A DNA stretch of 37,879 nucleotides from an uncultured Lentimicrobiaceae bacterium (GTDB lineage: Bacteria > Bacteroidota > Bacteroidia > Bacteroidales > F082): contig CAYYDS010000002.1 of NCBI GenBank assembly GCA_964470665.1, forward strand, positions 1 to 37,879, given 5' to 3'. A program made the translations under genes and the position numbers. The notes below the pieces were generated by a model. That model did not search any database. It had not been told where the DNA came from and was given only the letters and a program-made list of their open reading frames with translations. Shown piece by piece: positions 1 through 37,879 of this stretch; within the stretch, counting starts at the first letter, position 1; each line of letters begins with the position of its first letter.

Positions 1-165
1 TCCGTTTCTGCAAGCAAACAATCTGGGGATGTTACAGAATCTATCAGTAGGAATTATTCCCTAAATGGTACTTGTAATCCCCCAGCTTCTGTAACAGCCA
101 CATTTACAGAGGCTTTTAACACAGCTGTAAGAGCAGATATTATTAACCTTGCAAAGGCTCTTTAG
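1..165 (+). CDS. 3' end of an unidentified protein gene (partial, enters from left edge)
   Basis: Frame 1 is open from base 1 to TAG 163-165 (...TEAFNTAVRADIINLAKAL*). The stop abuts the next start (TAGTATG). Less AT-rich than the rest of the window. Confidence 0.6.
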   Translation, partial: SVSASKQSGDVTESISRNYSLNGTCNPPASVTATFTEAFNTAVRADIINLAKAL

Positions 166-166
166 T

Positions 167-649
167 ATGAAAGCAGGTAATCTATATAAGATACAAGAGT
201 TAATTAACAATATTAACCTTAAAGGTGCAAACAAGGACTTCGCTCTTTCATTAATGAAAACAAGAATAAACCTTATTCCTCATGTAAAAGGAATTAATGA
301 AAAATTAGAACAGGCACATAAAGATGCTTTTCCTGAGGATTATCGTGCAAGGGAGGAAAAGTATAATGAAGCTGTGAAGGAATACCAAGCTGCAAAAGAA
401 AAGGGTGAGAATATTTCTAAATTAGAGAGGAAAGTCTCTAAACTTTATGATGATATATCTCCAGAAATGCAATCTAATAATAATACTTATAATGAATTGG
501 TTAAAACCATTTTTGATGAGGATATAGAGGTTGCTATATTTCCAGTCACTTTAGAAGATTTACTTCAAGCTATTGAAAAGACAGACAGGATATCTTACAT
601 AAATGCTGAGCACATTGAAGCTTTAGAGAAAATATGTAAGGTTGAATAA
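167..649 (+). CDS. hypothetical helical/coiled-coil protein, 160 aa
   Basis: ATG 167 two bases after the upstream TAG; the track ORF 149..649 starts at a TTG that overlaps the upstream gene. TAA stop 647-649. No TGA and no Trp codon. E/K-rich helical composition. Confidence 0.75.
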   Translation: MKAGNLYKIQELINNINLKGANKDFALSLMKTRINLIPHVKGINEKLEQAHKDAFPEDYRAREEKYNEAVKEYQAAKEKGENISKLERKVSKLYDDISPEMQSNNNTYNELVKTIFDEDIEVAIFPVTLEDLLQAIEKTDRISYINAEHIEALEKICKVE

Positions 650-911: not shown

Positions 912-1310
912 ATGTTAGAATTTTTAATTAATAATTGAGTGCAATTATCTACTACTTTAGGTATTATAATAGCCTTCTTTGTCGAGCGGAAGAAACGGCG
1001 TGCAGAATCAGATGAAGCCCAATCTTCCGCCTTAACAAAGATGCAGACAGCGTATGATAAATTTGTCACAGACAGTAATAAAAAAATAGATGAATTATTA
1101 GAAAGAATTAAAGAATTAGATAAACTAGTTGAGATATATAGAAAAGAAAAAAATGAATTGACTGAGAAAATAGAAAGTTTAGAAAAACAATCAACCGATG
1201 ACCAAAGAACAATAGAGGAATTTGGTGAAAAAATAAAGTCTCAAGATAGATTAATCAAAGAACAAAAACGAAGAATAGGTACTTTAGAAGAACAAATAAA
1301 AAGAATATAG
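912..1310 (+). CDS. single-pass membrane protein with long coiled coil (spanin-like or holin-regulator-like; lysis-module candidate), 132 aa
   Basis: ATG 912, with in-frame TAA at 903 upstream. Track ORF 939..1310 begins just after in-frame TGA 936-938. With TGA=Trp the N-terminus is MLEFLINNWVQLSTTLGIIIAFFVERKKRR (hydrophobic helix plus positive cluster), followed by heptad-like E/K-rich sequence. TAG stop 1308-1310. Confidence 0.7.
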
Positions 1311-1312
1311 TT

Positions 1313-1606
1313 ATGATATTTGAAATAATTAAATTAGTCGGTTGAAGTATTGTGTTAATACTATTAGGTATTTTTAAAGGAACAATTCCTCTTAAACATT
1401 TTTATTCAATGCTTTGTTCTACCATTTTAATGCTATATGTTATTATAGATGGTATAATTAGTCATCAGATTTACGATTTATATGTGCGAGATTTTGGCAA
1501 TATAGCTATAATTATAACCTTTATTTTTTATATATTTAATTATTCTAAAGAATTTGATTGAATAGAGGATTATAAAGCTGGTAAAAAAGGATTAAAAATT
1601 GATTAG
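1313..1606 (+). CDS. small 3-TM membrane protein (class I holin-like), 97 aa
   Basis: ATG 1313 two bases after the previous stop. In-frame TGA at 1343-1345 and 1559-1561; TAG stop 1604-1606. Three hydrophobic segments (LVGWSIVLILLGIF, MLCSTILMLYVIIDGII, GNIAIIITFIFYIF) and a charged C-terminal tail. Confidence 0.65.
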
Positions 1607-1628
1607 ATATATTCCCCTTTTAAAACAA

Positions 1629-1835
1629 ATGCTTATGAACAAAAAACAAATTTTAAGATCAATTGCACTATTTTTCATAGTGTTCATTCCATTTATCGCA
1701 GGGATAGTCTGTAAAGAACTATCAAACAATCTTTTTGAAATTATAATTGGTTGGTCAACAATGGCTATCCAAGTAGGAGTAGGAATATGATTGTTACGCA
1801 AAGATCCTAAAAAGATTAAAGAAAAAACTGAATAA
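1629..1835 (+). CDS. small 2-TM membrane protein with basic C-terminus (class II holin-like), 68 aa
   Basis: ATG 1629 (alternative TTG 1599 overlaps the previous gene). In-frame TGA 1788-1790; TAA stop 1833-1835. TM1 SIALFFIVFIPFIAGIV, TM2 LFEIIIGWSTMAIQVGVGIWLL, then RKDPKKIKEKTE. Confidence 0.65.
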
Positions 1836-1914
1836 TTCAGTTTAGATTAAAAAGTTGCAGATTAAATATAATTTTTCAATTAAAAAGATAATTTATAATA
1901 AATTTTTAGATTTA

Positions 1915-1986: not shown

Positions 1987-2373
1987 ATGGTAAATTTAGA
2001 GTTATTAAATTTTCAACAGATTCTTTCCAATAGTAAAACTAAAGGGATTGATCACGAAGATTCCATTAAATGGATTAAGATTAAAAGAGAATGGACAAAG
2101 AAGATTGAAGAGTTTCAAGAAATTAATAAAGAATTAGTATCAACTAATAATATTAAAGTTTCTGATTCTGGAAAAATTGATACAGATAATACAAGTAAAG
2201 AAGATTTGTCTAATTACAATAAATCTTTTTCTAAGCTATTAACCGAAGAAATTACTTTTTCAACAATAGGTAAATTGAAAACTGATACTATTTTTACATT
2301 AAGAGATTTAAATGATTGGGATAGTGAAGTATTAGATTTAATATTGAAAAATTTTGGTAATGAACTAGAATAA
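1987..2373 (+). CDS. hypothetical protein, 128 aa
   Basis: ATG 1987, TAA stop. First gene after P1. All 3 Trp are TGG; no TGA. Confidence 0.75.
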   Translation: MVNLELLNFQQILSNSKTKGIDHEDSIKWIKIKREWTKKIEEFQEINKELVSTNNIKVSDSGKIDTDNTSKEDLSNYNKSFSKLLTEEITFSTIGKLKTDTIFTLRDLNDWDSEVLDLILKNFGNELE

Positions 2374-2378
2374 ATACT

Positions 2379-2666
2379 ATGCAAACAACAAACATTACAA
2401 CAAACGTTAATTGTACACACGTAATTGACGGAATTAATATAAATATAAATTACAGTTTTAATGCGTCTGCTCCAATAACAATTAGAGTAGACTGTAATAA
2501 ATCAAGTGAAGGAGTTTATATTAATGTAAATAGAGAGTATTCTGCTAATGGCACTTATACTCCTACACAATCTTCTAAACCTTTTGGTGAAGAATTTGAT
2601 ACAAAACTAGCTACTTTAATGATAGCTGTTTTTGAAAATTATACCGATCCTTCCTTGGTTCAATAA
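2379..2666 (+). CDS. hypothetical protein, 95 aa
   Basis: ATG 2379 five bases after the previous stop; TAA stop. No Trp codons. Confidence 0.65.
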   Translation: MQTTNITTNVNCTHVIDGINININYSFNASAPITIRVDCNKSSEGVYINVNREYSANGTYTPTQSSKPFGEEFDTKLATLMIAVFENYTDPSLVQ

Positions 2667-2691
2667 AAACAAATAAATAAAATGAATTAAT

Positions 2692-3735
2692 ATGTCAAAT
2701 GGATTAGATTTCTACGGATTAGATGATCAATTACAATCTATAGTAGAGCCAACTGAAAAAATTCCCGTTCAAGAGGGAACAATAGAACCACATATTACAG
2801 ATCCTCAGATACAATACGATGATGACGATTTAATCGGAAGAGTATTATTATCAAAAGGAATTTCAGATTTTAATAAAATAAAATTTGAAAATGATAATGG
2901 TGAGATAGAAGAAAAAAACTGAAATGATTTATCAATAGATGAACAATTCAATATAATAAATTCTTCAGATGTAGATCAAGATTACGGGTTAGACGATGAT
3001 GAGATTAATCTTATTAATGTAATAAGATCAAATAATATGACAGTTGATGAGTTTATCAACGTTGTACGAAATCAATCTCAAACTCAACCAGAAGAACTCG
3101 ACCAATTCACAATAGACCAATTTTCGGATGATGAATTGTACGTAACAGATATGCAAGCAAAATTTCCTGATTTAACAGAAGAAGAAATTTTAAATTCTTT
3201 AGAACATGATAAATCAAATTCGGCATTATTTGATAAAAAAATGAATAATTTGAGAAATGAATACAAAGAATTAGAAAGATTGAAAATAGAACAGGAATTG
3301 GCTGAACAAGAAGCAGCTTTTCAAGAACAGCAAGAAATATTTCAAAATTCTGTAGTTGAAGCTCTTAATAATATTAATACTAGTACTATTGGAGGTTTTC
3401 AATTAGATTTGAGCGATAATGATATGCAAGGGATTTACGATTTTCTAACTCAAACAGATAGAGGAAACGTAAGATATTTAGCAAAAGCGTTAAATGATCC
3501 TAATACTCTTGTTAAGATGGCATGGTTTGCTATTAAAGGAGATGAAGCATTACAGGATATTAAAAACTATTATAGTAGAGAAATATCATCTGTGGCTAAA
3601 ACAAATTACGAAAAAGGTCTCTTAGACGGTAAGAAACAACAATCTGGAACTTTATTCGTAACAAATAATAAAAATAATAATAAAAGTACAGGTGGAGTAA
3701 AATCCCACAGTACTCTTTTTAAAGACGACTTTTAA
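2692..3735 (+). CDS. acidic coiled-coil protein, scaffolding-protein candidate, 347 aa
   Basis: Track ORFs 2692..2922 and 3037..3735 share frame 1 and are joined through TGA 2920-2922 with no TAA/TAG between. Very acidic N-terminal half, coiled-coil stretch (EYKELERLKIEQELAEQEAAFQEQQEIFQ). Lies directly upstream of the capsid-sized gene. Confidence 0.55.
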
Positions 3736-3749
3736 AATTAATAAAAATT

Positions 3750-5171
3750 ATGTTAGTAGCAAATTTTACAACCGTAAGACCAACAATGGGTGATACCCGT
3801 ACATATGCAGACTTTACTAAATTCTTGGGTGATAAACCTACTAGATTAGGTATTGTAGCTAGTATGTATGAAGATAATACCCTTACATATTTAACTGAAT
3901 CTCTTAAAAACATTGTGTACATGAGTGCAAAATCTGACGAAAAATATCGTAAGATTAATTCAATGTATTTTGAGTGGGAAGTTAAAAATGCTCAGATTAA
4001 AAGAATTGCATTTGCAGCAGTCCCTACTGATAATGGAGCAAATGGTTCTGAAATAGATATGGTATTTACTGAAAATTATTTCCAGAAATACGATATATTT
4101 AAAATAGAAAAAACTAGACAACAGTGTATTGTTCTTTATAGACCTATTAGAATTAGTGACGCATCTTGGAAAGTAACTGTACGTTTGATCGATAATGATT
4201 ATCGTAGCGTGCTTGATACATCTGGTTGTCAAATTGGTGATACTTGTGTATTCCAGTCAGTAGCTATGCCTGAAATGCATGAAGAAGGTTACGCAAAATA
4301 TCAAAGTTCTATCGAAAGACATCGTGGTTATATTACTACCCATCGTGTTGATGATAGTTGGTCAGCAGTTTATGCAGCTACCGAAGATATGTTTGTTCGT
4401 ATAGCAACAGGAAGTGATGAGAAAGATAAAAAAGAATCTGTATATCAAATGAATAGTAAAGAAAAAGATTTGTTAGACAATTTCATGTTCGTTAAGAATA
4501 GTGGACTTTTGTTTAATAAAACTAACGTAGATGCTAATGGTAGAGTTACTATTAGTGATCCCGATACTAATCGTCCTATTTACATTGGTGATGGTGCTAT
4601 TCCTCAGATTGAAAGATTTGCTGATAAATATGGTTATAATAACTTAACCGTAGATGTACTTCAGACAGTTCTTTCTATGATGAATGGAAAATCTGAGTCT
4701 CCTACTGGAAACCATTACGTATTTTTATGTAATGATAAATTCTGGACTGACGCTCAGAAGAAACTTCTCTCTTATCTTTCAGCATTTCAAGCTGACGGTA
4801 CATATTTGTGGTCAAAGGTAGAAAACGATTATATCAAAGTAGGTGCTACTTTTGATTCTTATGTTTTCGGTGGAAATACAATTAGTTTCAAAGTAGATAG
4901 AACTTATTCTAGAGAATATGGTTCAAATAAAGGATTCGCTACTTGCTTTAACTTAACTAAAGATAAAACTTCAGGAACTCCTGCTATTGAAATGTTTACA
5001 TTGAAAGGTGGAGACTTTATTACAAATAAGTTTGTAGGTGTTGGGGGTTATGATGGTTTGACATCAGGTTTAGTTTCTAGTGCTGTTGCTGGATCAAAAC
5101 TTATATATTGGGGATATAGCGGAATCGCCGTTTACAATCCTTATAGATCATTTATACTTTTTGAAGTGTAG
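3750..5171 (+). CDS. major capsid protein candidate, 473 aa
   Basis: Uninterrupted 473-aa ORF. Less biased codon usage; 6 TGG and 0 TGA. Tandem TAG-TAA stops, followed by a strong hairpin terminator. Positioned after the scaffold-like gene. Assigned from size, position and expression signals, not from a recognised motif. Confidence 0.55.
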   Translation: MLVANFTTVRPTMGDTRTYADFTKFLGDKPTRLGIVASMYEDNTLTYLTESLKNIVYMSAKSDEKYRKINSMYFEWEVKNAQIKRIAFAAVPTDNGANGSEIDMVFTENYFQKYDIFKIEKTRQQCIVLYRPIRISDASWKVTVRLIDNDYRSVLDTSGCQIGDTCVFQSVAMPEMHEEGYAKYQSSIERHRGYITTHRVDDSWSAVYAATEDMFVRIATGSDEKDKKESVYQMNSKEKDLLDNFMFVKNSGLLFNKTNVDANGRVTISDPDTNRPIYIGDGAIPQIERFADKYGYNNLTVDVLQTVLSMMNGKSESPTGNHYVFLCNDKFWTDAQKKLLSYLSAFQADGTYLWSKVENDYIKVGATFDSYVFGGNTISFKVDRTYSREYGSNKGFATCFNLTKDKTSGTPAIEMFTLKGGDFITNKFVGVGGYDGLTSGLVSSAVAGSKLIYWGYSGIAVYNPYRSFILFEV

Positions 5172-5187
5172 TAAATAAATAAGAAAA

Positions 5188-5230
5188 AGAAAGAAATTCT
5201 CTATGAATTTAAATAGAGAATTTCTTTTTA
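5188..5230 (+). terminator. intrinsic terminator hairpin after the capsid-sized gene
   Basis: Perfect inverted repeat AAGAAATTCTCTAT (5191-5204) / ATAGAGAATTTCTT (5213-5226), extendable by flanking A/T pairs. 8-nt loop GAATTTAA; runs into a T tract. Confidence 0.7.
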
Positions 5231-5246
5231 AAAAATATGAATTAAT

Positions 5247-6074
5247 ATGGAAAATGCAAGAAGAAACCTTATCGTTTTAAGAAGCGTATACCCTAAATCA
5301 GGAAATAAGATTATAACTAATCCAGTTAAAGATCCTAAAACAGGAAGATATCCCGATTGTGTTAAAGCAGTTAATAGTAATAATGATATGATATTAACTG
5401 ATAAAGAAATTAACAGTGGAAGATATTTTATAAAAGAAACTGAGATATTTGTATTAGAGGAAGGTAAAACGTTTGATTTATCAGATGAAATAGAATCAGC
5501 TCAATGAGATGCTGTTAAAAATAATCCTCTAATTGCTCCAGATCGTGATGCGAGAGATGCTCAAGGAAATCTAATTATAGATGGTGGAGAAACAAGATAT
5601 GGTAGAGCCGAGTTATATATTGAAAAACCTGGTTACGAATCACAGAAGAAAGTATCTAAGAAACGTTTAATTAAAGATGCGTTAACTTATATATTTGAAG
5701 ATAGTAATGAAGGATTAGTTACCAAATGTAAACTATTAGGTAAAAATATGAGTAATATTCCAATTCCTGATGTGCAGGATTATTTAATTGGAGTATCTGA
5801 GAAAAATCCCGAAATTATTATCGAATTATATACTGGAACAGATACTAATTTAAGATTGTTATTCGTGGAAGCTAAAGAAAAACGAGTAATATTTATAAAA
5901 GATAAACTATATATGTATGGAGAAGGTATAGTGTTGGGTGCTTCAGATAGTGCTGCAATTACTTGAATGAAAGAACCTAAAAATAAGAAAATGCTTAAGA
6001 TGATTGAGCAAGATACTTATCCTGATCTTTTTCCTGCAGAAGTAGTAGAAGAAAAAGCAAAAGACAAAAAATAA
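5247..6074 (+). CDS. hypothetical head-module protein, 275 aa
   Basis: Track ORFs 5247..5507 and 5748..5966 (frame 0) join through TGA 5505-5507 and 5964-5966. TAA TAA at 6072. No TAA/TAG in the gaps. Confidence 0.8.
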
Positions 6075-6080
6075 TAAAAA

Positions 6081-7313
6081 ATGACATCAAGACAAGTATA
6101 TGAAGCTACACTGATAGAGTGTAATCAAACATCTGCTACATCACTTTTGTTAGAAGATTATAATTATTTAATAAATAAAGCCATATATCAGTATATAGAT
6201 AAAAGATATAATTTGTATGATATTAATCAACAATTAAGTGATGATTTAAGAGTATTAAAAAGTACTTGTATATTAACTCCTACTTTGTCTGATGATTATC
6301 CTACTAATTCTATATTTGGTGCCACTTACGAAGTAAATTTACCAGACGATTATTTTCATGTACTTAATTGTATTTGTGAGTATAATATAACAAAACAATT
6401 TAAATGTTATGACGCCAATAGTAGATGAGCACAATCTGCTAAAAGATTAACTTCTGATATGTGGTCTCAAGTTATTAATAATGCTTATAATAAACCTAGT
6501 TATAGAAATCCTTATTTCTTTATTCATAATGTAAATTCTCAAATTGGTTTACCTACTAATTCTTATACTCCTCAAAGAGGAACAGATGTTAATCTAAGTA
6601 CTAGTAACTTTAGAGGTACTATTACTTGTACTACAGCTACTAATTTAACAATTAATGGTGAAACTGTTACAAATTTTATTGGAACAGGTAGTTATGAAGG
6701 AGCAACATCAGTAGATATTAGTAATAATACTATTAGTGGTGGAACTATGATTTTAGTTGGATCATTTACTGTAGTTACTGCTGATCAAAGTAGTATTGGT
6801 GAGTTTAGTGGAACAGCTACTGCTAGTGGACCTAACACTGTTTATTCTAATAATTCTGTTATTAAAATAAATGTTACATCTGCTGTATTAGTGAATAATA
6901 TTTATAGTAAAGAAGCTATTACACTAACTATTCCTCAAAATTCTATAACATTAGGTAATGGAAGTACTTTGAATACTGTTGAAAGAACAGGAGGTCATCG
7001 TTTCGGAAATGTAACAAGAGTACGATTAGAAATTAGATATGGAAAAGATAATTCTTTATTTCAATTAGATAAAGTGTATGTTGATTATTTAAAAACACCT
7101 CAACACATTAGATTAACACCACTTCAATTAGACACAACGGAAGATACTTCTCAAGTATTAGAATTTCCCGATTATGTCTGCCAAGAGATCATAAAAGAGT
7201 TAGTAATACTTGTTATGGAAAATTCAAGTAATCCTAGATTACAAACAAATATTCCTATTAATCAAGCAATTCCTTCTCAAACACAACAAACACAACAAAC
7301 ACAAAATAATTAA
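6081..7313 (+). CDS. hypothetical virion protein with T/S/G/N-rich insertion domain, 410 aa
   Basis: Track ORFs 6081..6428 and 6459..7313 (frame 0) join through TGA 6426-6428. The middle ~180 aa are Thr/Ser/Gly/Asn-rich and beta-like. C-terminus ends in (QTQ)x3 NN. TAA TAA stop. Confidence 0.8.
7278..7304 (+). repeat. 3 x 9-nt in-frame tandem repeat CAAACACAA (QTQ QTQ QTQ) at the C-terminus of gene 6081..7313
   Basis: Direct reading: caaacacaa caaacacaa caaacacaa, then aataattaa. Confidence 0.9.
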
Positions 7314-7318
7314 TAATT

Positions 7319-8128
7319 ATGTTTAATTTTACAACAACAACCGTTTTTAATACAGCAGATAGTTTTAGTGCAGTATCTGGTAAACTTACTGTAAAAGGTA
7401 TAGGTACTTTCAAAAAAAATGAAGCAGTTTTTAAGAAAACCGCAGGTGCTGCTGGAGTAGCTCCTGTTTTAACAGCAACACCTACTGGAAATGCTGACGC
7501 AACAACAGCAGGATTATATAGATTAACACTTAGTATTAAACTAGTAGATAGTATGGAAACTAGTTTTAATAATAGTTTATCAGATTCAACCAAAGTGTCT
7601 TATTTTGAATTTAATGTAGCTAATGGAGATACTGTCGCAGATATTAGTGAAAATATAGCAGATTTAGTTAATTTTAATCGTTTTGGTCCACAATCACTTG
7701 TGGTAGCCACACATACTGCTAATAAAGCTACTATTACTGGAGCTAATCCTTATTTAGTTTTCAACAATTATGTTATTGAGAAATATAACACAACTACTGA
7801 TATATGGGCTGCTTCGAGTTATATTACTTTAGGTTATACTCCCTCTTCTAGAGGTTTGGGTACTTATGAATTTTTGATTAAAAATATTGTATTACCTACT
7901 TCAGAAAATCTAAGATTTAGTGCCCCTGTTGGTGATATGCCAATTAAAGGTGCTACATATACACAATATGTTTTTACTCTTACTAAACCTAGAGTTGGAA
8001 TAGGATCATCCGTAGTTGGTGAGAAGAATACTTCTATTACTAAACACGTATGTTATGTTCTCTCTGGCGCTGTTACTACAACTGTAGATGGTCTTATTAC
8101 TACATCTACTATTGACGCAGAAGTGTAA
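7319..8128 (+). CDS. abundant structural protein candidate (decoration, auxiliary capsid or fibre-like), 269 aa
   Basis: Uninterrupted ORF with no TGA (single Trp is TGG). T/A/G/V-rich beta-like sequence. Followed by the only GC-rich hairpin terminator in the region. Confidence 0.6.
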   Translation: MFNFTTTTVFNTADSFSAVSGKLTVKGIGTFKKNEAVFKKTAGAAGVAPVLTATPTGNADATTAGLYRLTLSIKLVDSMETSFNNSLSDSTKVSYFEFNVANGDTVADISENIADLVNFNRFGPQSLVVATHTANKATITGANPYLVFNNYVIEKYNTTTDIWAASSYITLGYTPSSRGLGTYEFLIKNIVLPTSENLRFSAPVGDMPIKGATYTQYVFTLTKPRVGIGSSVVGEKNTSITKHVCYVLSGAVTTTVDGLITTSTIDAEV

Positions 8129-8158: not shown

Positions 8159-8195
8159 GGGCATCCCGTAAAAAGGGTGCCCACCTTTTCTTTTT
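8159..8195 (+). terminator. intrinsic terminator (GC-rich hairpin plus T tract)
   Basis: GGGCA(T)CCC 8159-8167 pairs with GGGTGCCC 8175-8182. 7-nt loop GTAAAAA, then ACCTTTTCTTTTT. Confidence 0.8.
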
Positions 8196-10039: not shown

Positions 10040-10040
10040 T

Positions 10041-26897: not shown

Positions 26898-29800
26898 ATG
26901 GATAATACTTTTGAACACGATTGGTTAGCATCCAAAATACATAATGACGATAATAAAAGTGATTGACAATTAAAATTACGCACTTTCGGTATAAACAAAA
27001 ATAATATTGGTTTATTACCGAAAGATGCTTATTTGAAAATGCCACAGGTAAGAGAATTAAGTTTATTTGTAGATACTGATGGAAATTTCAATCAAAGTAA
27101 GTTTGACAAATATTATGATGTTGCTTTAAAAGAATTTAACGAATTTATTGAAGATGATACATTAGATGAAGTTTTTTCTAAAGGAATATTATTTGATTAT
27201 TATCGTTTACCTTTAGGTGAACAAAAAGTATATTTGCGACCTTCTGTTAATCCTGAATTAAAAACAAAAGGTATTGGTAGATTGTTCGGAGAAGGTGCTC
27301 CTACAAGAAGTATGCGTGAAGCTGCTCAAACTCAAAAAGTATTTAATACAGAAACAAATGATTGAGAAGATTATTCTCCTAATGATTTAGGTATAAAGTA
27401 TTTTTTCAAGCAACCTTTAATTGAAGCTAGGTGAGAAGAAACAGGAATAGAAATTACTCCTTCTGGACAACAAAAGATACATTATGCTGGTGATTGAAAA
27501 CAAAATGAAAAAGGAATGCCCTTTTATGAAACACTTGGTAATAGAGATGTTGCTAATAAAGGCATTTTACATGTTGCCGACATTTTAACAGAAGATGGAT
27601 CTAAAGCTAATAAATTTGATGTATTTGATTCAGACGATATAGATAAATCTATTGGATCTGTAGTAGCTAAATCATTATTATCTGTACTTCCTTATTTAAT
27701 ACCCTATGTTGGTAGAGTTTATGGTTTAGTACAGGCTTCTACTTTTCTAACACAAGCACTCTCTGTATTCGGTAAAGCTATTATTCCAGATGAAGAGTTA
27801 GGAATATGAAAAGCAATGAACAAAGTGGATTCTGCTGTTAGAAAGTTTGATTATTCTACATCAGATAAAGGAAGTGGTTCATTTTTTACAGTTGAATCAT
27901 TAGGTAATATGTTACCTGAAATTGTTGGTCAATTATACCAACAGAGAATGATAGCTAAGTTACCTAAATTATTAGGTATGGATAAAGCAGCAAGTAGAGA
28001 AGCTGCTGAATTTGTTAATAAAAATTCAAAAACATATCTTTCTAAGTATGGGATAACTTTAGAAGAAGCTATTAAAACCAACAAAATTGATCCGGTCTTT
28101 TTTGAAGAATATTTAACTGGTATAAATTCTGTAACAAAATTAGCTAACGAAAGATCTAGAAAACTAGCAGAAAATGGATCTAAACTATATATGGCTTTTA
28201 CTCAATCATCAGATATGTATGATACATTTAAACAAAATGGTTATAGTGATTTAGGTACGGCTGTTGGTATGATGGGAGCATTATATGGGTTTCATCGTAT
28301 CTTTGCATCAAGTTTGGGTGATGTTGCATTAAGTGGTTTAGGGTTAGACGACACTAATAAACTAGTAAAAGCTTTATCCGCTGATATGATAGCTAAAACA
28401 GGAACTAAAGAATCTTTAGAAGCTGCCGCAAAAGCTGGATCATCTAAATTCATAAAAGCTGTAAATAAATTTGGAAATACTATGCAAAAGAATTTTGTTA
28501 AAATACTTGATAACAAAGAAGGTGTTTTAGCAAATATGGTTAAAGAGTCACTTGAAGAGGTTTCTGAAGAAGCTTTACAAGATGCTATATATTTTGGTAT
28601 GGAAAAATTAGACTGAGCTTTTAAAAAATTAGGGATTACTGAAAAACAAGGTAAACAAAAGTTTTTAGAATCAAGTCCTTTCCAGCGTTATTTAGCGTCT
28701 GCTGTTGGTGGTGCTATTGGTGGTGCTATGTTTCAAGGTATTGGGAAATTAGATGATATTATTCATAATGAATATCAAAAAGTACAAACTTTTAATGAAG
28801 CATTAGATAATAATCTGTATGGTGTTTTAATGGATCACATTAGAAATAACAAAACTGATGAAATATTAGCTACTATTGATAAAGAAGTAAAAAATGGTAA
28901 AGTTGCTTCTAAAAACTTGTCTTTTGATAAAAAAACAAAAGATACATTCGATGTTACCGATGATCCAAACAAATCACAAAATAAAGTATTAGGTGATATG
29001 TTAAGGCAATATGTAACATTAATGGATGTTATTATTAATAAAGGTGGTTATAGACTATCTGATAACGATATAGTTAATAGTGCTATAGATAAAGATGCTC
29101 TTGTTGAGGCTTTATCAGTTAAGCAAGATTTCTTTGATAACTCTTCTATTAGTGAACACATAATGTCTGATTTTACTTCTAATTTAGCAAATTATACTAA
29201 GAAAAGAGCAGAAGAATTAACTTGGACCGATGAACAAAAACAAGCGAATAAAGGATTACCTTTAGAATCTGAAATTTATAAACAACAATTAGATGATTTA
29301 TTAAGTGGTTCTAAAAAAGCGGATTACTTAATAAATTTACCATATTGATTTAATCCAACAATCAATGATAAATTGTTTGCTATGAATAAAGAAGTATTAG
29401 CTTATTCAATGTATGATCGTAATTATCAACAACTGAGTGTAGTTGAAACTCAAAAAGTTGATGAAATGTTTAATTTATATTCTTCTAATAAACAAGAATT
29501 TCATAAAAAACATGGTTTAAAGTTTTATAGAAGTATGTTAGAATTATCTAAGAATTTTGTTAATTCTAACAATTATAGCGAACAATTAATTAATTTTAAA
29601 GAAGAATTTAATAAATTAACAAAAGAATATAAAACCAAAGCTGTTGAAAAATTATTAAATTTTGATACTTTTAAAACACAATTTTTAAAAAATAAAACAG
29701 AATTAGAATTTTTTAATGAAAATCCTGATATTTTTAAATATTTAACTATAAAAGGTGATGTTATACCTGACGCTGAAAAAATAGAAGCTGTTGATAAATA

Positions 29801-32800
29801 TATTAAAGCAGAAAGCAGAAACATGGATAATGCTCAAACAAACAATAATGTTTCTGACTTTATCAAAACGAAAATAAATACACATAGTGGATTATCAGTT
29901 GATACAGATAGTGTGTTATTTGAGGATGATTTATTAATAGAATATTTAAATAAAGTAAAGGAAATAGTTGATAAACACCAGTATATTGATAAAGATACTA
30001 AGGAATATTTAACATATTTAAGAGAAACATATAATTCTCATAATCCTAATTTATTAGTTGACAAAATATTAAATAAAATTGTTGATGATTTAAAACCATC
30101 TTTCAATGTAATAGATTCTTTTAATTTAACTGAAGAAGATAAAAATAAAACGATAGAATCTATAAAACAATACAAAAAAGATTTAGAAAGACTTAGTAAA
30201 TTACCTACACTGAAGCCTAATGTAGCTACAGCCTTTTTTAACATATTGCCTTCAGCTTGACATGAAGATCAAACTAGTCTTAGGAAAGTAGATCCTTTTA
30301 GTGTATTGGGTGATTTTATTGAGTTAGTAGATCAGGATCCAAATATAATAAATGATCATACTTCTCCAGACGGAATTGCTTTAAATTATTTACTTGATGA
30401 AAATAGTTGAGAAAATATTGATAGTAATTTTACAGATTTAACTCCCATAAATAAATTAAAATATTTAAAATATAAAATTGAATCTGATTGAGAAGCTCAA
30501 GTTGTTGAAAATATTAACGTGTTAGAAGGGATAAGTGTTTTATTAGAAAGTGGTGATGATGCAAAAATTCAACGAGCAACTAAGTTTATTAATGACAATA
30601 AGGATACTTGAAAAGATATTGTTGATATTGATTTAGACCCTAACGTAAACATATTAGATAATGTAAACACTCTTATAAAAGCATTTGAGTCTGAATTAAA
30701 TGATACTGAGTATGATAACACAAAAGCATTATTAACTACATATGATTTTACACCTGATTTTAAAACAAAAATAGACAGCGATATAAACAATATAGATAGA
30801 CTATTAGATATATTAGAAAAATCAAGTATTGATTATGAAGATTTTAATGAAATAAATGTATTATATAATGAAGTTAAATATGGTATTGAAAAAAATACTA
30901 TAGTAGATCCTAATAATCCCCTCGATAATATTACTAATGTTTATAAATTAAATGATATTCTTGCTGATTATTATGATACAAAAATTCAAGTTTTTAGAAA
31001 CTTAGTAAATATAAACGACTTAACAAACGCTAATAACAATATAGCGACTATATTATCTACTTACGGGATTAAAGAAGATGGTAACAATAAAAAAATATCT
31101 GATTTAAAATTAGCTGAAAAAATAAGATTTATATCTTTAAATTTACCTTCTTTATTAATAAGTAATTTTACTACTCCTAATCCTGTTGTTTTTGATAATG
31201 CTTTGTTAAAACCAAAAATGGATCAAGTAATAAACGAAACTTATGATAAATCTAAAGAAATAGTTGATATTATATCATCTATAGATAATAATGTAAGTGT
31301 AGATAGTAGTCTTTATGATTTTACAAATACTGTAACTACTAAATTATTTGGTGAAAATATTAATGAAATTATTAGTAAAGAACAACTTAAATTTTTAGAT
31401 GATCCTAACTATCAGTATGAGCCAGAAGAAGGGTTGATTGATCGATTAAGATTAATGCACGATAGTCTTTTGACAGTATCTAAAATAATGAGCTTGTTTA
31501 TTAATGATGGTCCAACTTTAGGAGAAGGTTTAAATTATGTATCTATAATGAAAAACTATTTCAAGGATTATGATATGAAATCATTAACTAGTAAAGAGTT
31601 TGAAATATATGCTACAAATACTGACGCTTTATTAAGAAAAATAAATCAACTTATTGATAACGGTAAAGGTAGAGCTGAAACAGAAATAGCGGACAATGAA
31701 ATTGTTTGAAGTAAAGGAACAAATAGTATTATAACTGCGTTTATCAAAGGAGAAACTGGAGACAAATTAAAAAATATAAAAACTATTAGCGGTGATTCTT
31801 TTATAGAATTAGTAATAAAAGAGTTTGTAAACATTGATAATATTGATAACTTGCTGAGTAATCCTGATGAAGATCATATAAAATTATTTTTTGATTTTTT
31901 AAGTGCTGTTAATAAAGTATTTTCAGAATTAGACGATACTAATAAAGAATATGTTGTTAAATCATTTGTTAATTCTAATGTAATAACAAGTGAAAAAGAT
32001 TTAATGACAACTGTTAGTACTGTTTTTAACAAAACTACAACGGCTGATGATATACACATTAATTTACTAATTCATCTGTTAATGGCATCATCAGCATATG
32101 ATATTAAAAAGTTTAATAATGAATATAAAACCGCTTTGAACAATGGTTTAAAACATACTTTATTTTTTCAACAATATTTAGCTTCTTTTGAAAATGTTGC
32201 ATTTACTATAAATAATCCAGCATTTGAACATTATTTATCTTCTGATGATGATACTCGTTCTTTTAAACCAAATAATATTTCAAAGAAAATGATGTTAACT
32301 ACTGGTGTAGCCGGAAGTGGAAAATCTACAGCTACTCCAGAAGCAACAAATGCTATTTTACAACAAATGATTGTAAAAAACACAGAAGGTAAAGATCGTA
32401 AACTAAAAGTTTGATATTCTTCTCCTTCTGATTATACCTTAACTTTAAAAAATAATGTAAAAGGTATTAATAAAACTGAAGCTGAATCTTCTAAACAAGA
32501 ACCAAATTATTTTTCAAGAACAGAACTATTTAGTAAAATTTTTGGAGAAACAATTTATAATGAAGCATTACAAGCATATGAACGAAAAGAAACTGAATTT
32601 TTAACTAAAGATCATATTACTAAATTAACAGATGTAGAATTACCTGATGTTATATTGGTAGACGAGTATACTTGATTTCATAATGATGAAATGTGAGCTT
32701 TAGAAAAATTAGGAATTACTGTACTAATGTTTGGTGATAATAAACAAGATGGATTACGAGAAAGAGACAATAATTTATATTTTCAGGGAGCTAATTTTGA

Positions 32801-35681
32801 ATCTCCAGAAATAGTATTGCGTTTACGTAGTAATAATATGGCTATGAATCAAGCCAACAAAACACTATATAATATTGTTAGAGAATATAATGAAACTGAA
32901 AATCCGCGGGAGGGAAGAAAAAAAGTATTTGAAAAATTAAAACAATTATCATTTATACATTTCTATAATGTTGATAAAACAATATTAAATGGTGTAGATG
33001 TTGTACCTAATGATTCTTCTTTACACGATAAAGCAAAATCTTTAATGAGTGGATTAAAACCAGGTGAAAAAATAACAGTTATTACAAATAAAAGAAGTGG
33101 ATGATTTGATAATTTAAGAGGTGAATTATTAACAATATTACCTCCAGAAAACACAAGAGGTGCTGAAACAGCTTATTCTATTATAGATATAGACTGACAA
33201 TTAATTAATGGTGAAGATAAATCTAATACTTTTGCGGCAAGATTATATACTTTAGTAAGTAGAGCGAAACACGGTGTTATTTTGGTTAACAATAGCCAGT
33301 ATACTTTACCTTCTAACGAAATATCATATCGTATTAGTTATGATGAAAAATTTACTACTGATGATTTAAATAAACTTAAAAATCATATGTTAAATGTAGT
33401 GTTAAAAGATGCTAAAGTAGATCCTACTAAAAAAGAAAATAAAGAAAATAAACAGCAAATTACTAAAGAAGCTAGTGAAGAAAAAAAACTTCAAAAACTA
33501 AGTAATGAAATATTAAACTTATTAAAAAAGGAAGATGCTCCAGAACAAAAAAATATAGCTACTCCAAACAGAATTGCTATTAATTTATCAAGTTTAGATA
33601 AAACTTTCATGTGTGCTAATAGTATAGATTTATATGACTTATTGAACTATAATTCAGAATCACAAGATAAATTATCTAATTTTGCAAAATTTTCTGATTT
33701 TTTCTTACAAAGTAATCCTGATAAAATTTATGATAGTTTTTTATTAAATTTTATAAAAGAAACGTTTTCGGCTGACGATATAAGTAATATTGATGAAAGT
33801 ATTATTGAATCGTGAGATGATTTTAAAAAATTATTAACTTTTAAATTAATATATGATAAGAAGTTAAATAAATATTTTTTAGCTGTTACTATTAATTTTA
33901 AGGGTATAGAGGGATTTACAACAACTAAACATTCCTGAACTATCTATTTAGGTGAACTTTATAAAGAATTATCACAGAATGATGTTAATACTAATACAAT
34001 AAAACAATATTTAAACCAAAATGGTGAATTTATAATAGATGATTATTATAATGAAAATAATAAATTTATTAGAAAAAATACTTATGGGGAAGGTAATCCA
34101 CAAGAAGTAAATGACTTTACAACAATATATTGAAGAAATAAAATTGGAGATGTTAGATTAACCCCCGGTTCTGAAGGTTTTGTAAATCATTTTTCTGGAA
34201 GAACTGTTTTATTTGTAGATAATAATTTCTGAAGAGCTGATCAAAATAAAAATATTTTAGAATATTATTTAGAAGAACTACAAAATAATCAAAAAAGTAC
34301 TGATTTAGTTAGCAAATCATCATATATGTTTATGTTAAATGAAGTTGGTATTACACCATCTGAATTTATGAAAAATTATGCGAAATCAGATAGATCTATT
34401 ATAAAAAACGTAAATATGGGAAAATTTATATTGTCCTTATATTTATTAAAACAAGATTTAGACAATGATATTATAACTTTAGATAGTAGTGAGAAAGACT
34501 TAGCTATTGAATTAATTAATAATTATTTTATTACAGATAGGAGATTACATTCATTAACGGATATAACTATTTCTAGTCGTGTTACAACACCCATTGAAAA
34601 TTCAGATTTAATAGATACTGAAAAAAGAGGAGCTTCTCTTTCTTCATCTCAACGAAATTCTTGATATTACATAGAACAAAATAAGGATAATTATAAAGAT
34701 TCAATAAAACATGTAATTAATATTTTAAACAACGGTGCTTTTAACGATGGTGATTTAAATAAATTTATTGATGACTTTTTAGGACGATTAAAGGATTTTG
34801 ATTCTATACAGTATAGAAGTAGTGTACTTTTAGCTAACGCTCCCGCTAATTCAAATTCAAACTACTTAAATTTCTTACAATTATTAACAAAAGACGATGT
34901 AATTAGTATTCTTTTAAGTAAGTTTAATATTGATAAGGATATTAAAAAACAGCGATATGATATAAAAACATTATTAGAAAATGGTGTAGTTCCAATATTT
35001 TTTAAATTAAATTCTATGTTATCAACCTATGTTGATATGTTTAATAATAATGTATATTTTAAAGAAATTGTAGAAAAAAGTTGAGAAAGATATTTTTTTC
35101 CAGGAGGATATTTTGTTACAGGGTTAAGTAAAAAAAGAACAAGTGACACACATATTAATGGGTTTTATAAAGCAACAGATGAGATTGTTAAAAATGCTAG
35201 AGTACCTGGTTTTCTTAAATATCAAAATATTTATTTAGACGGATTAGATATTGTTAAGAAAATGAACAATGGTATTGTTTCACAAACTCCTCCTTCTATT
35301 CCTACTAATACTAATAAATCTACTACTAAGTCTGTTAAATCAAAACCTCAGTTAAAAAATACTTCTCAGAAAAAGTCTAAGATTAATCAGAATATTTCTA
35401 CTATTATTCCAAGTTCTCAATCTAATTCTCAATCTTCTACTAATCTATCTACTATTCCGACTTCTACTCAACCTCCTGTTCCTGTTTCTACTTTAAATTC
35501 TTCCACAATAGAAGTTATAGACTATGATGATAAAATACAATATAATATGGATGGTGAGAATTATATTCGTGTAGGAAATAATTGAAAATATAAAAAAGGT
35601 AAAACTGTAACCGATCAATCAATTATAGATGCGTTAAATAAATATCAAGAAGAAAATAAACCAGAAGACTGTAAACCTTAA
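26898..35681 (+). CDS. giant multidomain protein, 2927 aa, with hydrophobic N-terminal third, internal SF1-helicase-like ATPase domain and S/T/P-rich C-terminal linker
   Basis: ATG 26898. Ten track ORFs (27033, 27516, 27816, 28728, 29373, 31203, 31851, 32727, 33282, 34326, 35262) are all frame 0. I read every gap codon by codon, including the 943-nt gap 30261-31202, and found only TGA (about 24 in total). TAA 35679-35681. Confidence 0.85.
32290..33290 (+). other. SF1 (RecD/Dda/alphavirus-like) helicase-type P-loop NTPase domain inside the 2927-aa ORF
   Basis: Walker A GVAGSGKST (32304-32330). Walker B ILVDEY (DE at 32661-32666). Motif III-like MFGDNKQDG (32727-32753). Motif V-like ENTRGAETAYSIIDID. 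Motif VI-like YTLVSRAKHGVILV (33246-33287). Canonical order and spacing. Confidence 0.65.
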
Positions 35682-35686
35682 ACAAT

Positions 35687-37879
35687 ATGGCAAAGTGTAT
35701 AAATTTAAAAACAAGTAACCCAGAGATTAAAAAAATATATGATGAATATTTTACAGATCTTGATTCTTATAATCCAAGTACTGTAAAAAGTTATATTGAT
35801 GCTGTTGGGAGTAAAACAAAAATTAAGGATAAAATTGCTATTTATAACAATATCCGTTCTGATCAAAATATTAATAGTAACTTTAAACATTTTACTAATT
35901 CTGATTGAATTGATGTTATAAACTATGCTCTCGATGTAAATACTAAATATGAGTCTTTACAAATAAATGATAATATAACTTTTGAAAATAAAGATTATAA
36001 GTTTTTTTCAAGTAATATAGTTAAAACTAAATTTCTTAAAAAATTACATAAAAGTTTAATTAATATAACTTATTTTAAATATGGTACAATTGCTCCTGTT
36101 ATATCTAATTCTGATTTAACAAAAAGTATTAATGCTTGAAAAACAACATTAATGAATAAATTGAAAACAGAATTAAAGATTGAACACTTAGATGATAGGA
36201 GTGCGTTGATATACAGTAAATTGTTTTTAAAAGAAGCTAATTTAAAAAATATTTCTTCTGATTTAGCTGATCCTACAATAACTTGAGCTGAAGCAGCTTA
36301 TATATTACATAATTTTGATAAAATTATTAGAGATACTAAATTTATTACTAAAAACGGAAATGCGTATTCTTTTGAACGAAAGGTTTTAGAAAAATCTTAT
36401 TATGATAATGAGACAGCTATGTCTACATCTACTCCTCAATATTTAAAAAATTATATTGAATCATTAATATTAGACGATGATTGAACAACTATGAGTATGC
36501 AAAATTTAAATGATATTAGTAGAATATTATCTAATTTAATTAATAGTAACACTTCATTTTGAAATGAGGAGGATGAAATCGATAATACTAAAACTTTTGG
36601 ATCTGATACAATAAGTATTCAAGATAAAATGCATCAATTGTATCACTATTCTGATAAATATTTTATTAAAGAAAAATCATTGATAAAAGCAATGCAAACA
36701 CTATATCACGCTGTTTATTCTCCATATGAAGACGATAACTCATTATGATATAGATATAATAAATATTATAAAAATAATGAAACAAATTGAGGAGAATTAC
36801 CTTGAAATTTATATGATATTGTTTCTAAGCATTTACTTACTTCTAAAGCAATAGTTTATACAGAAAGTTTATATGATAAAGAATCAAATACAAACACACT
36901 AGTTAAATCTGATTTTAAAGCTATTGATAAAAGAGTTAAACAACTTAGACGAAGTATTCAAGGATCTTTGTTTTTAGAATCTAATATTAAAGAAAAAGAA
37001 AATGAATTAGAAATAAAATTATCTTCTGACAAATCTATTGTTATTAAAAATAAAAAAATATTATATAACAATAATCCATTAACAACTAATGAAAGTGATT
37101 ATGATATTTGAAAATATATTTTTTCTGATGTTATTGGTCAAAATTTTTCTACAGAACAATTAAGAGATCTTTTTAGTTGAGAAGGCTTAACAAACTATAC
37201 TAATGCTTCAAATCAATTAAATTTGATATATGATTTAGTAATTTCTTCATATATATCTAAACAAGCACTTAATAATAATCAAGTATTGACAATAAGTGAA
37301 ATAAAAGATGCTTTAAATAATAATAAATTTATTAATGATAATATAAAAAAGGGATATAGAAATAGTACTCAAATAAATAGTATTAGTTCTCAAATAAATA
37401 GTATTATAAATTATATAGCTTATTCATTACAAAAAACAGATAATATTCCGCTTGATTCGTTTTTTATAAATGCTAAAAAAGATAATATTGCTAGAGATAG
37501 AGTTAGAAATGTTGCTTTAGAAGCTCCTCAAATAATGAGAAAAACTATATCAAATTTGGGGTTAGATAAAAATATATTTAGTGATTTATTAAATAATCCT
37601 ACACATGGTAAAGATTGAGGATTACATTTAATGGGGTATATACAAAATAATTCAGGATATAGTAAATCTGTACAAAAATTATCATTATCTGAATCTTGAT
37701 ATAATAATTTTGTTGAAAATTTTGTAAAGTTATATACTAACGATAATACAATGAATAATAACATTATATCTAAAATGTTATTTTTTCAACCAACGGTATA
37801 TGCTGATAAAGGTAATATTTTTAAAATCCCTCTTACTTTTGATTTTTTAGATAGTGTTGGATTAAATTTAAATGATAAA
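35687..37879 (+). CDS. 5' part of another giant protein (at least 731 aa, runs off right edge)
   Basis: ATG 35687. Frame 2 joins track ORFs 35687..35908 and 37223..37618 through about 12 TGA codons. Still open at the last codon, 37877-37879. No recognisable motifs. Confidence 0.8.

What the first reader, a model, noticed from the sequence alone, without database searches (positions are those of the whole stretch)
1..37879. The window only makes sense with TGA read as Trp (code 4): about 60 ORF fragments fuse into 25 genes
In the standard-code track nearly every + ORF stops at TGA and the next resumes in the same frame (21310/22234/23101/24280 all frame 1; 27033 to 35262 all frame 0; 13743 to 17619 all frame 0). 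Reading the gaps by hand I found only TGA in frame, never TAA or TAG. After merging, every gene ends in TAA or TAG (TAG at 163, 1308, 1604, 5169, 20860), so TGA is never needed as a stop. By manual count there are on the order of 100 in-frame TGA against roughly 25 TGG. Contexts are Trp-like (YKLWPFRKWGEQ, SQFWAELQEWQYDE, YRDWVGIQWKTN). One TGA (20431-20433) falls on the conserved Trp of the DUF192 FWMK signature. TGA-to-Trp recoding is known in some gut phages, so the phenomenon is not new. It does determine every annotation here, and the phage would need its own decoding machinery if the host uses the standard code.
Basis: partly seen in the sequence, partly recalled or inferred. Interest (0 to 1): 0.9.

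Follow-up and report, generated by a model that had tools for sequence, protein, structure and literature searches.

The report
Gut crAss-like phage reading TGA as tryptophan
This 38-kb contig is the virion-gene block of a crAss-like gut phage whose genes make sense only if the stop codon TGA is read as tryptophan, which is a real but already documented habit of this phage group.

Summary
With the standard code the + strand breaks into 49 fragments of at least 300 nt. With TGA read as sense it becomes 24 back-to-back genes plus one 3' fragment, covering 97% of the window. There are 110 in-frame TGA against 22 TGG, and every stop is TAA or TAG. TGA means Trp, not Gly. In 35 standard-code relatives, Trp is the majority residue at 26 of 70 alignable TGA sites, and it is near-invariant at the well-aligned ones. 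Total Trp content also matches the orthologues.

The window is an entire NCBI contig. It carries the late (capsid, tail, cargo) block of a divergent crAss-like phage, most likely of the Zeta group. Its relatives use the standard code, TAG recoding or TGA recoding, as published for that group. So this is a new member of a known kind.

Outside the capsid genes TGA is used exactly like any other A-ending synonymous codon, with no context bias, so decoding must be nearly complete. The capsid block avoids TGA.

The decoding machinery (suppressor tRNA, release-factor control) is not on the contig and could not be tested.

The parts
1..165 (+). 3' end of an upstream gene, stop TAG at 163-165
167..649 (+). 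g01, 160 aa, no Trp codon, unknown function
912..1835 (+). g02-g04 (912-1310, 1313-1606, 1629-1835): three small membrane or coiled-coil proteins. Together 4 TGA and 1 TGG. A lysis cassette is a possibility read from the sequence only.
   Evidence: no family match
1987..8128 (+). TGA-poor capsid block g05-g11: g05 1987-2373, g06 2379-2666, g07 2692-3735, g08 3750-5171, g09 5247-6074, g10 6081-7313, g11 7319-8128. Together 4 TGA and 12 TGG.
   Evidence: P = 4e-7 against the other NNA/NNG codon pairs of the same genes
3750..5171 (+). g08, major capsid protein, 473 aa, 0 TGA and 6 TGG, stop TAG
   Evidence: PF23898 Crass_capsid; phrog_11589 major head protein; 65% identical to MT835470
5188..5229 (+). 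17-bp hairpin followed by a U-run, directly after the capsid gene (attenuator or terminator-like)
   Evidence: -19.9 kcal/mol, z = -6.4
8159..8182 (+). G+C-rich hairpin plus T-run closing the capsid block
   Evidence: -16.4 kcal/mol
8224..10664 (+). g12-g15 (8224-8889, 8889-9572, 9572-10039, 10041-10664): conserved virion-block proteins. Together 10 TGA and 0 TGG. Several of these TGA fall on Trp that is invariant in 30+ relatives.
10625..13741 (+). g16, 1038 aa, 12 TGA and 0 TGG. Large tail protein, orthologue of the 1143-aa ORF of MT835470.
13743..18224 (+). g17, 1493 aa, crassvirus muzzle protein, 15 TGA and 2 TGG
   Evidence: PF25731 crAss_MUZ, E = 1.8e-23; phrog_15100
18227..20284 (+). 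g18, 685 aa, 9 TGA and 0 TGG, unknown virion protein
20284..20862 (+). g19, DUF192 protein, 192 aa. Its single Trp codon is TGA at 20431-20433, in the FWMK motif.
20995..21270 (+). g20, 91 aa, Gln/Gly/Pro-rich, no Trp codon
21310..26896 (+). g21 (21310-25074, 1254 aa, 14 TGA and 2 TGG) and g22 (25067-26896, 609 aa, 5 TGA and 3 TGG). Large proteins syntenic with MT835470 ORFs.
26898..35681 (+). g23, 2927 aa, 24 TGA and 2 TGG, with a weak SF1 helicase-like P-loop region. Orthologue of an intact 2967-aa standard-code ORF in MT835470.
   Evidence: (PF01443, 23.6 bits)
35687..37879 (+). g24, at least 731 aa, runs off the contig end, 12 TGA and 0 TGG. Weak match to the 2275-aa ORF of MT835470.

Best explanation
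The contig is the late (capsid, tail and cargo) gene block of a divergent crAss-like phage, most likely of the Zeta group, in which UGA is a sense codon for tryptophan.

Shown: TGA is in frame 110 times and is never a terminator. It aligns with Trp in standard-code relatives. Outside the capsid genes it is used at the same frequency as any other A-ending synonymous codon.

Inferred: the host is a standard-code gut bacterium, most likely a Bacteroidota. The phage re-programmes translation late in infection from genes elsewhere in its genome of roughly 150-190 kb. The expected components are a tRNA with anticodon UCA charged with Trp, plus some way of out-competing or disabling release factor 2. 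These virion genes therefore cannot be translated until that switch is on.

The capsid operon, above all the major capsid gene, keeps TGG. This makes the highest-copy proteins independent of UGA decoding, or less exposed to any residual termination at UGA.
For: Code:
- ORF fusion and 97% coding under code 4.
- All stops are TAA or TAG.
- TGA columns align with Trp.
- Trp content matches the orthologues.
- ORF lengths match intact standard-code orthologues.

Identity:
- PF23898 Crass_capsid on g08 and PF25731 crassvirus muzzle on g17.
- Synteny of g07-g24 with MT835470 and MT835492 from human faeces.
- MCP relatives sit on contigs up to 183-194 kb.
- MT835470 carries PolA, RNR and ThyX-like genes (PolA, RNR and ThyX are my reading of the N-terminal sequences printed there, no family search was run), as described for Zeta (PMC7886860).

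The code is set by the phage, not the host:
- Of 46 IMG/VR relatives, 34 use the standard code, 9 are TAG-recoded and 4 are TGA-recoded.
- On the MCP tree the window sits next to a TAG-recoded genome and away from the other TGA clade.
- 22 of 24 genes lack any Shine-Dalgarno-like motif. My own knowledge is that this is typical of Bacteroidota and their phages.

Efficient decoding:
- TGA is 91.4% of Trp codons outside the capsid block, against 90.3% A-ending in five other NNA/NNG pairs.
- The base after TGA matches background (p = 0.6).
- g23 has 24 TGA, so 90% read-through per codon would leave only 8% full-length product.

Capsid exception:
- g05-g11 have 4 TGA and 12 TGG (P = 4e-7). The MCP has 0 and 6 (P = 1.5e-4).
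- The block ends at a terminator-like hairpin.
- The MCP also has 0 TGA in the four other TGA-recoded relatives.

Literature:
- Recoding in late genes of crAss-like phages, with code switches inside Zeta (PMC7886860).
- Standard-code hosts, with suppressor tRNAs detected in only 35% of TGA-recoded genomes (bioRxiv 10.1101/2021.08.26.457843).
Against: - No tRNA, tmRNA or other Rfam family is on the contig. The contig is all that exists of this genome, so neither the suppressor tRNA nor any release-factor device was observed.
- No early gene is present, so 'late genes only' is untested here.
- No host link (CRISPR spacer or prophage) was obtained.
- Saturated, context-free TGA use is also what a phage of a native code-4 host would show.
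- The Zeta assignment rests on relatives' contig sizes and gene content, not on a TerL or portal phylogeny.
- The capsid-block depletion could partly reflect general codon optimisation. The MCP also favours CAG and TTG. Against the most G-rich pair, P is only about 0.04 (my arithmetic, 0.583^6, from the codon counts; no tool call computed it).
Confidence: 0.8

Rival explanations
1. The host itself reads UGA as Trp (a code-4 bacterium such as a Mycoplasmatales-type mollicute). The phage simply mirrors its host, so no phage decoding machinery is needed.
For: - Very low G+C (26.7%, GC3 about 10%).
- TGA is used as a neutral synonymous codon without context bias.
- 24 TGA in one ORF demands almost complete decoding.
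- No tRNA on the contig.
- A related phage contig is binned with an Anaeroplasmataceae MAG.
Against: - Close relatives with the same gene order use the standard code or TAG recoding. No known bacterial host code explains TAG recoding, so in this clade the code follows the phage.
- Shine-Dalgarno motifs are absent. My own knowledge is that this is unlike Mollicutes and Firmicutes phages.
- The capsid genes avoid TGA, which a native code-4 host would not impose.
- The Anaeroplasmataceae-binned locus looks TAG-recoded. My own knowledge is that this family uses UGA as a stop.
- crAss-like phages are assigned overwhelmingly to Bacteroidetes (PMC7886860).
Confidence: 0.08
2. UGA is read without a dedicated suppressor tRNA. 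The phage would modify or exploit host tRNA-Trp(CCA) for near-cognate reading and inactivate release factor 2.
For: - Suppressor tRNAs are undetected in about 65% of TGA-recoded phage genomes (bioRxiv 10.1101/2021.08.26.457843) and in several opal-recoded Zeta genomes (PMC12386605, Table 1).
- Near-complete decoding is needed here.
- No tRNA was found in the 21-kb loci of TGA-recoded relatives. Those loci cover only the capsid region.
Against: - No direct evidence at all.
- Some opal-recoded Zeta phages do carry tRNA-Sup-TCA (PMC12386605).
- The missing tRNAs may be a detection or assembly problem.
Confidence: 0.1
3. TGA encodes glycine (code 25), as in Gracilibacteria and Absconditabacteria and their phages.
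For: Code 25 gives the same ORF structure as code 4. The G+C content is low.
Against: - Gly is the majority residue at only 4 of 70 TGA sites, all in poorly aligned stretches covered by 1-2 sequences. Trp is the majority at 26, and Phe or Tyr at 12.
- The DUF192 motif Trp falls on a TGA.
- Gly content would rise, and Trp would fall to 0.16%.
Confidence: 0.01
4. The TGA codons are real stops. The contig would then be a decayed or mis-assembled sequence made of gene fragments.
For: None beyond the fragmented look under code 11.
Against: - No TAA or TAG occurs in 36.8 kb of code-4 ORFs, although both are abundant in the other frames.
- Homology continues across every TGA.
- The same sequence was assembled independently in a Logan contig.
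Confidence: 0.01

Closest known systems
Zeta-group crAss-like phages with opal (TGA to Trp) recoding (Yutin et al. 2021, PMC7886860; phage Lera and relatives, PMC12386605)
   Same: - Crass-type capsid and muzzle proteins, from human-gut-type samples.
- In-frame TGA concentrated in structural genes, with TGA aligned to Trp.
- Neighbouring lineages use TAG recoding or the standard code.
- Low G+C.
   Different: - The MCP is at most 67% identical to anything except near-identical fragments.
- On the MCP tree the window branches apart from the TGA-recoded IMG/VR relatives found here.
- G+C is 26.7%, below the 28-38% listed for Zeta genomes.
- TGA is 83% of Trp codons, against roughly 40% in the TGA-recoded relatives inspected.
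- Only 38 kb is available, so genome size, tRNAs, introns and DNA polymerase type are unknown.
TGA-recoded gut phage clades Jade, Sapphire and Agate (Borges et al., bioRxiv 10.1101/2021.08.26.457843)
   Same: Code 4 in phages predicted to infect standard-code hosts. Recoding lies in structural and lysis genes. Related phages with different codes sit close together on the tree.
   Different: - These are different phage lineages, not crAss-like.
- Jade carries a visible code-change module (suppressor tRNA, TrpRS, RF1). Nothing of the kind can be checked here.
TAG-recoded (code 15) crAss-like phages validated by metaproteomics (PMC9523058)
   Same: Same order of phages and the same logic of late-gene stop-codon recoding.
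   Different: A different codon and amino acid (TAG to Gln). In the papers read here, code 4 in phages is described as predicted, not as validated by peptides.
Mycoplasma and Spiroplasma genetic code 4 and their phages
   Same: UGA = Trp, a very A+T-rich genome, and TGA as the dominant Trp codon.
   Different: There the host lacks RF2 and carries tRNA-Trp(UCA) itself. Here relatives with other codes, the absence of Shine-Dalgarno motifs and the crAss affiliation point to a standard-code host.

Membership tests
Genetic code 4 usage (UGA = Trp) | In-frame TGA inside conserved protein-coding genes, with ORFs restored when TGA is read as sense | tested here: met
   110 in-frame TGA. 49 fragments fuse into 22 long ORFs and coding rises to 97%.
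Genetic code 4 usage (UGA = Trp) | TGA positions align with Trp, not Gly or gaps, in homologues that use the standard code | tested here: met
   Trp is the majority at 26 of 70 sites and near-invariant at well-aligned ones. Gly is the majority at 4 weak sites. The DUF192 motif Trp is a TGA.
Genetic code 4 usage (UGA = Trp) | TGA is not used as a terminator | tested here: met
   23 of 23 complete genes, and the upstream fragment, end in TAA or TAG.
Genetic code 4 usage (UGA = Trp) | A tRNA with anticodon UCA is available | not testable with these tools
   No tRNA or Rfam hit on the contig. The contig is the whole record and was not found in IMG/VR or JGI.
Genetic code 4 usage (UGA = Trp) | Release factor 2 absent, disabled or out-competed | not testable with these tools
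   Only indirect evidence: neutral TGA frequency, no context bias, and 24 TGA in one ORF.
Genetic code 4 usage (UGA = Trp) | Peptides with Trp at TGA positions | not testable with these tools
   No proteomic data.
Crassvirales (crAss-like phages) | Crass-type major capsid protein | tested here: met
   PF23898 Crass_capsid on g08; phrog_11589.
Crassvirales (crAss-like phages) | Crassvirus tail muzzle protein and a conserved structural gene order | tested here: met
   PF25731, E = 1.8e-23, on g17. g07-g24 are syntenic with MT835470 and MT835492.
Crassvirales (crAss-like phages) | Signature TerL, portal, primase and giant RNAP genes | not tested
   These genes lie outside the 38-kb contig. No RNAP motif was recognised in g21-g24.
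Zeta group of crAss-like phages | Largest genomes of the order (about 145-192 kb), with a rich replication and nucleotide-metabolism gene set | tested here: inconclusive
   Contigs of relatives reach 183-194 kb. MT835470 has PolA, RNR and ThyX-like ORFs (my reading of the N-terminal sequences printed there, no family search was run). The window itself is only 38 kb.
Zeta group of crAss-like phages | Switches between the standard code, TAG recoding and TGA recoding at short phylogenetic distance | tested here: met
   34 standard, 9 TAG and 4 TGA among 46 MCP relatives. The window sits next to a TAG-recoded genome on the MCP tree.
Late-gene-restricted recoding (Borges model) | Early and replication genes stay in the standard code while structural and lysis genes are recoded | not testable with these tools
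   The contig holds only late genes. Within it the capsid operon is TGA-poor.

The most novel reading that the evidence does not exclude
In cells infected by this phage, termination at UGA is essentially abolished. TGA behaves as a fully neutral Trp codon: 91% of Trp codons, no context bias, and up to 24 per ORF. That would require either an as yet unidentified phage device that neutralises release factor 2, or a crAss-like phage with a natural code-4 host.

The capsid operon is kept TGA-poor. It would then form a second translational regime that can be expressed before, or independently of, the code switch.
Probability: 0.3. Interest if true: 0.6.

Novelty: new member of a known kind. Interest (0 to 1): 0.3.

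Why it matters
Practically, any standard-code annotation of this contig is wrong. About 50-70 fragments replace 24 real genes, including a 2,927-aa protein.

Biologically, it adds a deep-branching, very A+T-rich lineage to the crAss-like phages that read UGA as Trp. It is also an unusually saturated case. The neutral use of TGA sets a lower bound on decoding efficiency. The TGA-poor capsid operon hints that decoding is not cost-free or not always on. Both points bear on the open question of how recoded phages overcome host release factor 2.

None of this is a new principle. The phenomenon has been published since 2014, and for this phage group since 2021.

Tried and rejected
- TAG or TAA as the recoded stop gives no gain in ORF length.
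- Code 25 (Gly) is rejected by the alignments.
- tRNA, tmRNA and Rfam scans of the window found nothing.
- Looking for the rest of the genome failed. Exact DNA searches in IMG/VR and JGI found nothing. The Logan contig covers only window 988-17425. A homology search with g24 found nothing. The cluster look-up shows the window is the whole 37,879-bp NCBI contig.
- Reaching the tRNA or early regions of TGA-recoded relatives also failed. A 677-aa protein next to the MT835492 tRNA block, and the MT835470 PolA, retrieved only close relatives of those two genomes or unrelated phages. The tRNA blocks found there hold no suppressor. MT835470 has no tRNA at all.
- A test for a leaky context after TGA found no bias.
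- PDB sequence searches with g08, g09, g10 and g16 gave no crAss001 hits.
- A DxDxD motif scan for the virion RNA polymerase was uninformative.
- The genome-contig scan returned two TAG-recoded relatives in Anaeroplasmataceae and Muribaculaceae bins. This is not usable as host evidence.
Full report
**1. Observation**

The window has 26.7% G+C and all its genes are on the + strand.
- With the standard code, the + strand holds 49 stop-to-stop fragments of at least 300 nt. They sum to 27,981 nt and the longest is 1,449 nt.
- With TGA as sense there are 22 ORFs summing to 36,819 nt, which is 97% of the window. The longest are 8,808, 4,488, 3,780 and 3,132 nt.
- Freeing TAG instead changes almost nothing.

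I called 24 genes with code 4, plus a 3' gene fragment at 1-165. They contain 110 in-frame TGA and 22 TGG. The 23 complete genes stop at TAA (19) or TAG (4).

Chance is not an option. TAA plus TAG occur 1,015 and 1,426 times in the two other frames of these genes and never inside them.

**2. Which amino acid**

The only relatives in the GenBank phage collection are two unannotated human-faecal contigs.
- MT835470 (117 kb, 36% G+C) has intact ORFs of up to 8,913 nt under the standard code.
- MT835492 (122 kb, 29% G+C) needs TAG read as sense on its structural strand.

Genes g07 to g24 are syntenic with both. The merged window ORFs match the lengths of intact MT835470 ORFs: 2927 vs 2967 aa, 609 vs 610, 1493 vs 1590, 1038 vs 1143 and 473 vs 473.

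I masked TGA as X and aligned the window proteins to MT835470 plus 34 standard-code IMG/VR relatives.
- 70 TGA sites were covered. The majority residue is Trp at 26, Phe at 6, Tyr at 6 and Gly at 4.
- The Gly sites all lie in poorly aligned regions covered by one or two sequences.
- At well-aligned sites in g07, g09, g12, g13 and g15, 30-33 of 32-34 relatives have Trp.
- TGG sites behave the same way, with Trp the majority at 7 of 15.

Two further checks agree.
- The DUF192 gene (Pfam E = 7e-26) has its TGA on the Trp of FWMRNT and WMKNT in PDB 3m7a and 3pjy.
- Trp content under code 4 is 1.07%, against 0.89% in the orthologous MT835470 block. It would be 0.16% from TGG alone.

TGA is therefore Trp. 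Code 25 (Gly) is rejected.

**3. What the sequence is**

- g08 carries PF23898 Crass_capsid (precomputed for exactly this protein) and matches a PHROG major head protein.
- g17 matches the crassvirus muzzle protein PF25731.
- g23 has a weak SF1 helicase-like region.
- Most other proteins have no family match and no PDB sequence match.

MCP homologues number 661 at E <= 1e-10. Many sit on contigs of 160-190 kb. IMG/VR relatives sit on contigs up to 194 kb.

MT835470 encodes PolA, ribonucleotide reductase and ThyX-like proteins (that reading rests on my recognition of their N-terminal sequences, not on a family search). This fits the Zeta group of crAss-like phages, which has the largest genomes and a rich replication apparatus. 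It does not fit the Epsilon group, which lacks a DNA polymerase (PMC7886860). I regard the Zeta assignment as likely but not proven, because TerL, portal and polymerase are not on this contig.

The window is the entire NCBI contig: the longest contig carrying this exact MCP is 37,879 bp. A Logan assembly (SRR8925814) independently covers positions 988-17425.

**4. Code switching in the clade**

Of 46 IMG/VR loci around related MCP genes, 34 read well with the standard code, 9 need TAG as sense, and 4 need TGA as sense (L042-L044 and L052).

On a rough neighbour-joining MCP tree the window sits on a long branch next to TAG-recoded MT835492. It is separate from the L042-L044 TGA clade. Its MCP is 64-67% identical to standard-code relatives but 55-57% identical to the other TGA-recoded ones.

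[quoted passage not shown] It also means the code follows the phage lineage rather than a host lineage.

**5. How TGA is used**

GC3 is about 10%.
- Outside the capsid block, TGA makes up 91.4% of Trp codons (106 of 116).
- The A-ending member makes up 90.3% of the Lys, Glu, Gln, Leu(TTR) and Arg(AGR) pairs, so the two fractions do not differ.
- The base following TGA has the background distribution (p = 0.6). It also matches the distribution after TGG in MT835470 (p = 0.94). True stops are followed mostly by T or A.

TGA thus evolves as an ordinary synonymous codon under A+T pressure. There is no sign of selection for leaky contexts.

With 24 TGA in g23 and 15 in g17, 90% decoding per codon would give only 8% and 21% full-length protein. 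At 99% the yields would be 79% and 86%. Decoding must therefore be close to complete when these genes are expressed. This is an inference from the sequence.

**6. The capsid exception**

Genes g05-g11 (1987-8128) hold 4 TGA and 12 TGG. Of their other NNA/NNG codons, 83.5% are A-ending (binomial P = 4e-7; Fisher test against the rest of the window, P = 2e-8).

The MCP alone has 0 TGA and 6 TGG (P = 1.5e-4). Five of its six Trp are conserved in the relatives.

The structures around the block are as follows.
- It is preceded by a 151-nt gap.
- It ends at a G+C-rich hairpin with a T-run at 8159-8182.
- A 17-bp hairpin with a U-run follows the MCP stop.

The MCP also has no TGA in the four other TGA-recoded relatives, where TGA is about 40% of Trp codons overall. 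Those four are not independent of one another, so this support is weak.

The MCP also favours CAG and TTG, so part of the effect may be general codon optimisation of a highly expressed gene.

My reading is that the highest-copy proteins are kept independent of UGA decoding, or protected from its residual failure rate. This is an inference.

**7. Mechanism and its limits**

No tRNA, tmRNA or other Rfam family is on the contig, and there is no more of this genome to search.

From the literature:
- Many crAss-like phages carry suppressor tRNAs, but their presence agrees imperfectly with recoding (PMC7886860).
- Only 35% of TGA-recoded gut phage genomes have a detectable tRNA(UCA). Two Jade phages carry a tRNA, TrpRS and RF1 module (bioRxiv 10.1101/2021.08.26.457843).
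- Several opal-recoded Zeta genomes show no suppressor, while Lera and c815351 do (PMC12386605).

Three observations make a standard-code, probably Bacteroidota, host the best guess:
- Shine-Dalgarno-like motifs are absent upstream of 22 of 24 genes.
- The phage is crAss-affiliated.
- Sister lineages use other codes.

I estimate about 0.8 for a phage-imposed switch in a standard-code host, including the variant without a dedicated tRNA. I estimate about 0.08 for a native code-4 host. That TGA is Trp I hold at about 0.97.

**8. Novelty**

Stop-codon recoding in gut and oral phages has been known since Ivanova et al. 2014 (as cited in PMC7886860). TGA to Trp in crAss-like phages, including Zeta, has been known since 2021. 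Annotation tools now handle it (PMC11210395).

In the papers read here, code 15 is the one validated by peptides (PMC9523058), and code 4 in phages is described as predicted.

This contig is a new, deep-branching and unusually saturated member of a known kind. The finding is correct and matters for annotation, but it is not surprising to a specialist.

Noticed in passing
L055 3050-3383; L056 6628-6957; L057 4463-4796; L062 5771-6103; L064, L067, L068 (IMG/VR relatives of TAG-recoded MT835492): ARAGORN calls phage-borne tmRNA genes (tag peptides ARVINMTPVSYAIAA and ARVINMTPAYQAAA) a few kb upstream of the tRNA block in relatives of a stop-codon-recoded phage. The same 20-kb loci hold no suppressor tRNA. 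A ribosome-rescue RNA in recoded phages may be relevant to how they cope with stop-codon read-through.
   Followed up: no
window 5188-5229, 8159-8182, 21293-21317: Three strong hairpins. One is a 17-bp stem plus U-run right after the capsid gene (z = -6.4). One is a G+C-rich terminator-like stem after g11. One contains the ATG of g21 (z = -4.9). They probably mark transcription-unit boundaries or attenuators.
   Followed up: partly
L052 10001-12586: In this TGA-recoded relative the capsid gene is split into two pieces by an insert of about 1.1 kb carrying a 318-aa ORF. It looks like the self-splicing introns reported at high density in Zeta phages.
   Followed up: no
L163 (CAVAQB010000092.1, 158 kb) and L164 (CAZEMQ010000001.1, 130 kb): Whole phage-sized contigs with related capsid genes sit inside genome bins named Anaeroplasmataceae and Muribaculaceae. 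Both loci read best with TAG as sense. They are probably binning artefacts, but they are possible host hints.
   Followed up: partly
window 912-1835: g02-g04 are three small proteins with predicted membrane helices (g02 also has a coiled coil). Together they hold 4 TGA and 1 TGG, and they lie just upstream of the capsid block. They may be a lysis cassette, the class of genes reported to prefer recoded stops. No family match was found.
   Followed up: partly
MT835470 (L002-L004), whole 117-kb record: This standard-code relative has no detectable tRNA gene at all. It uses TGA as the stop in only 2 of 26 large late-strand ORFs, against 5 of 12 on the early strand. That fits the idea that loss of TGA stops in late genes precedes recoding.
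   Followed up: no
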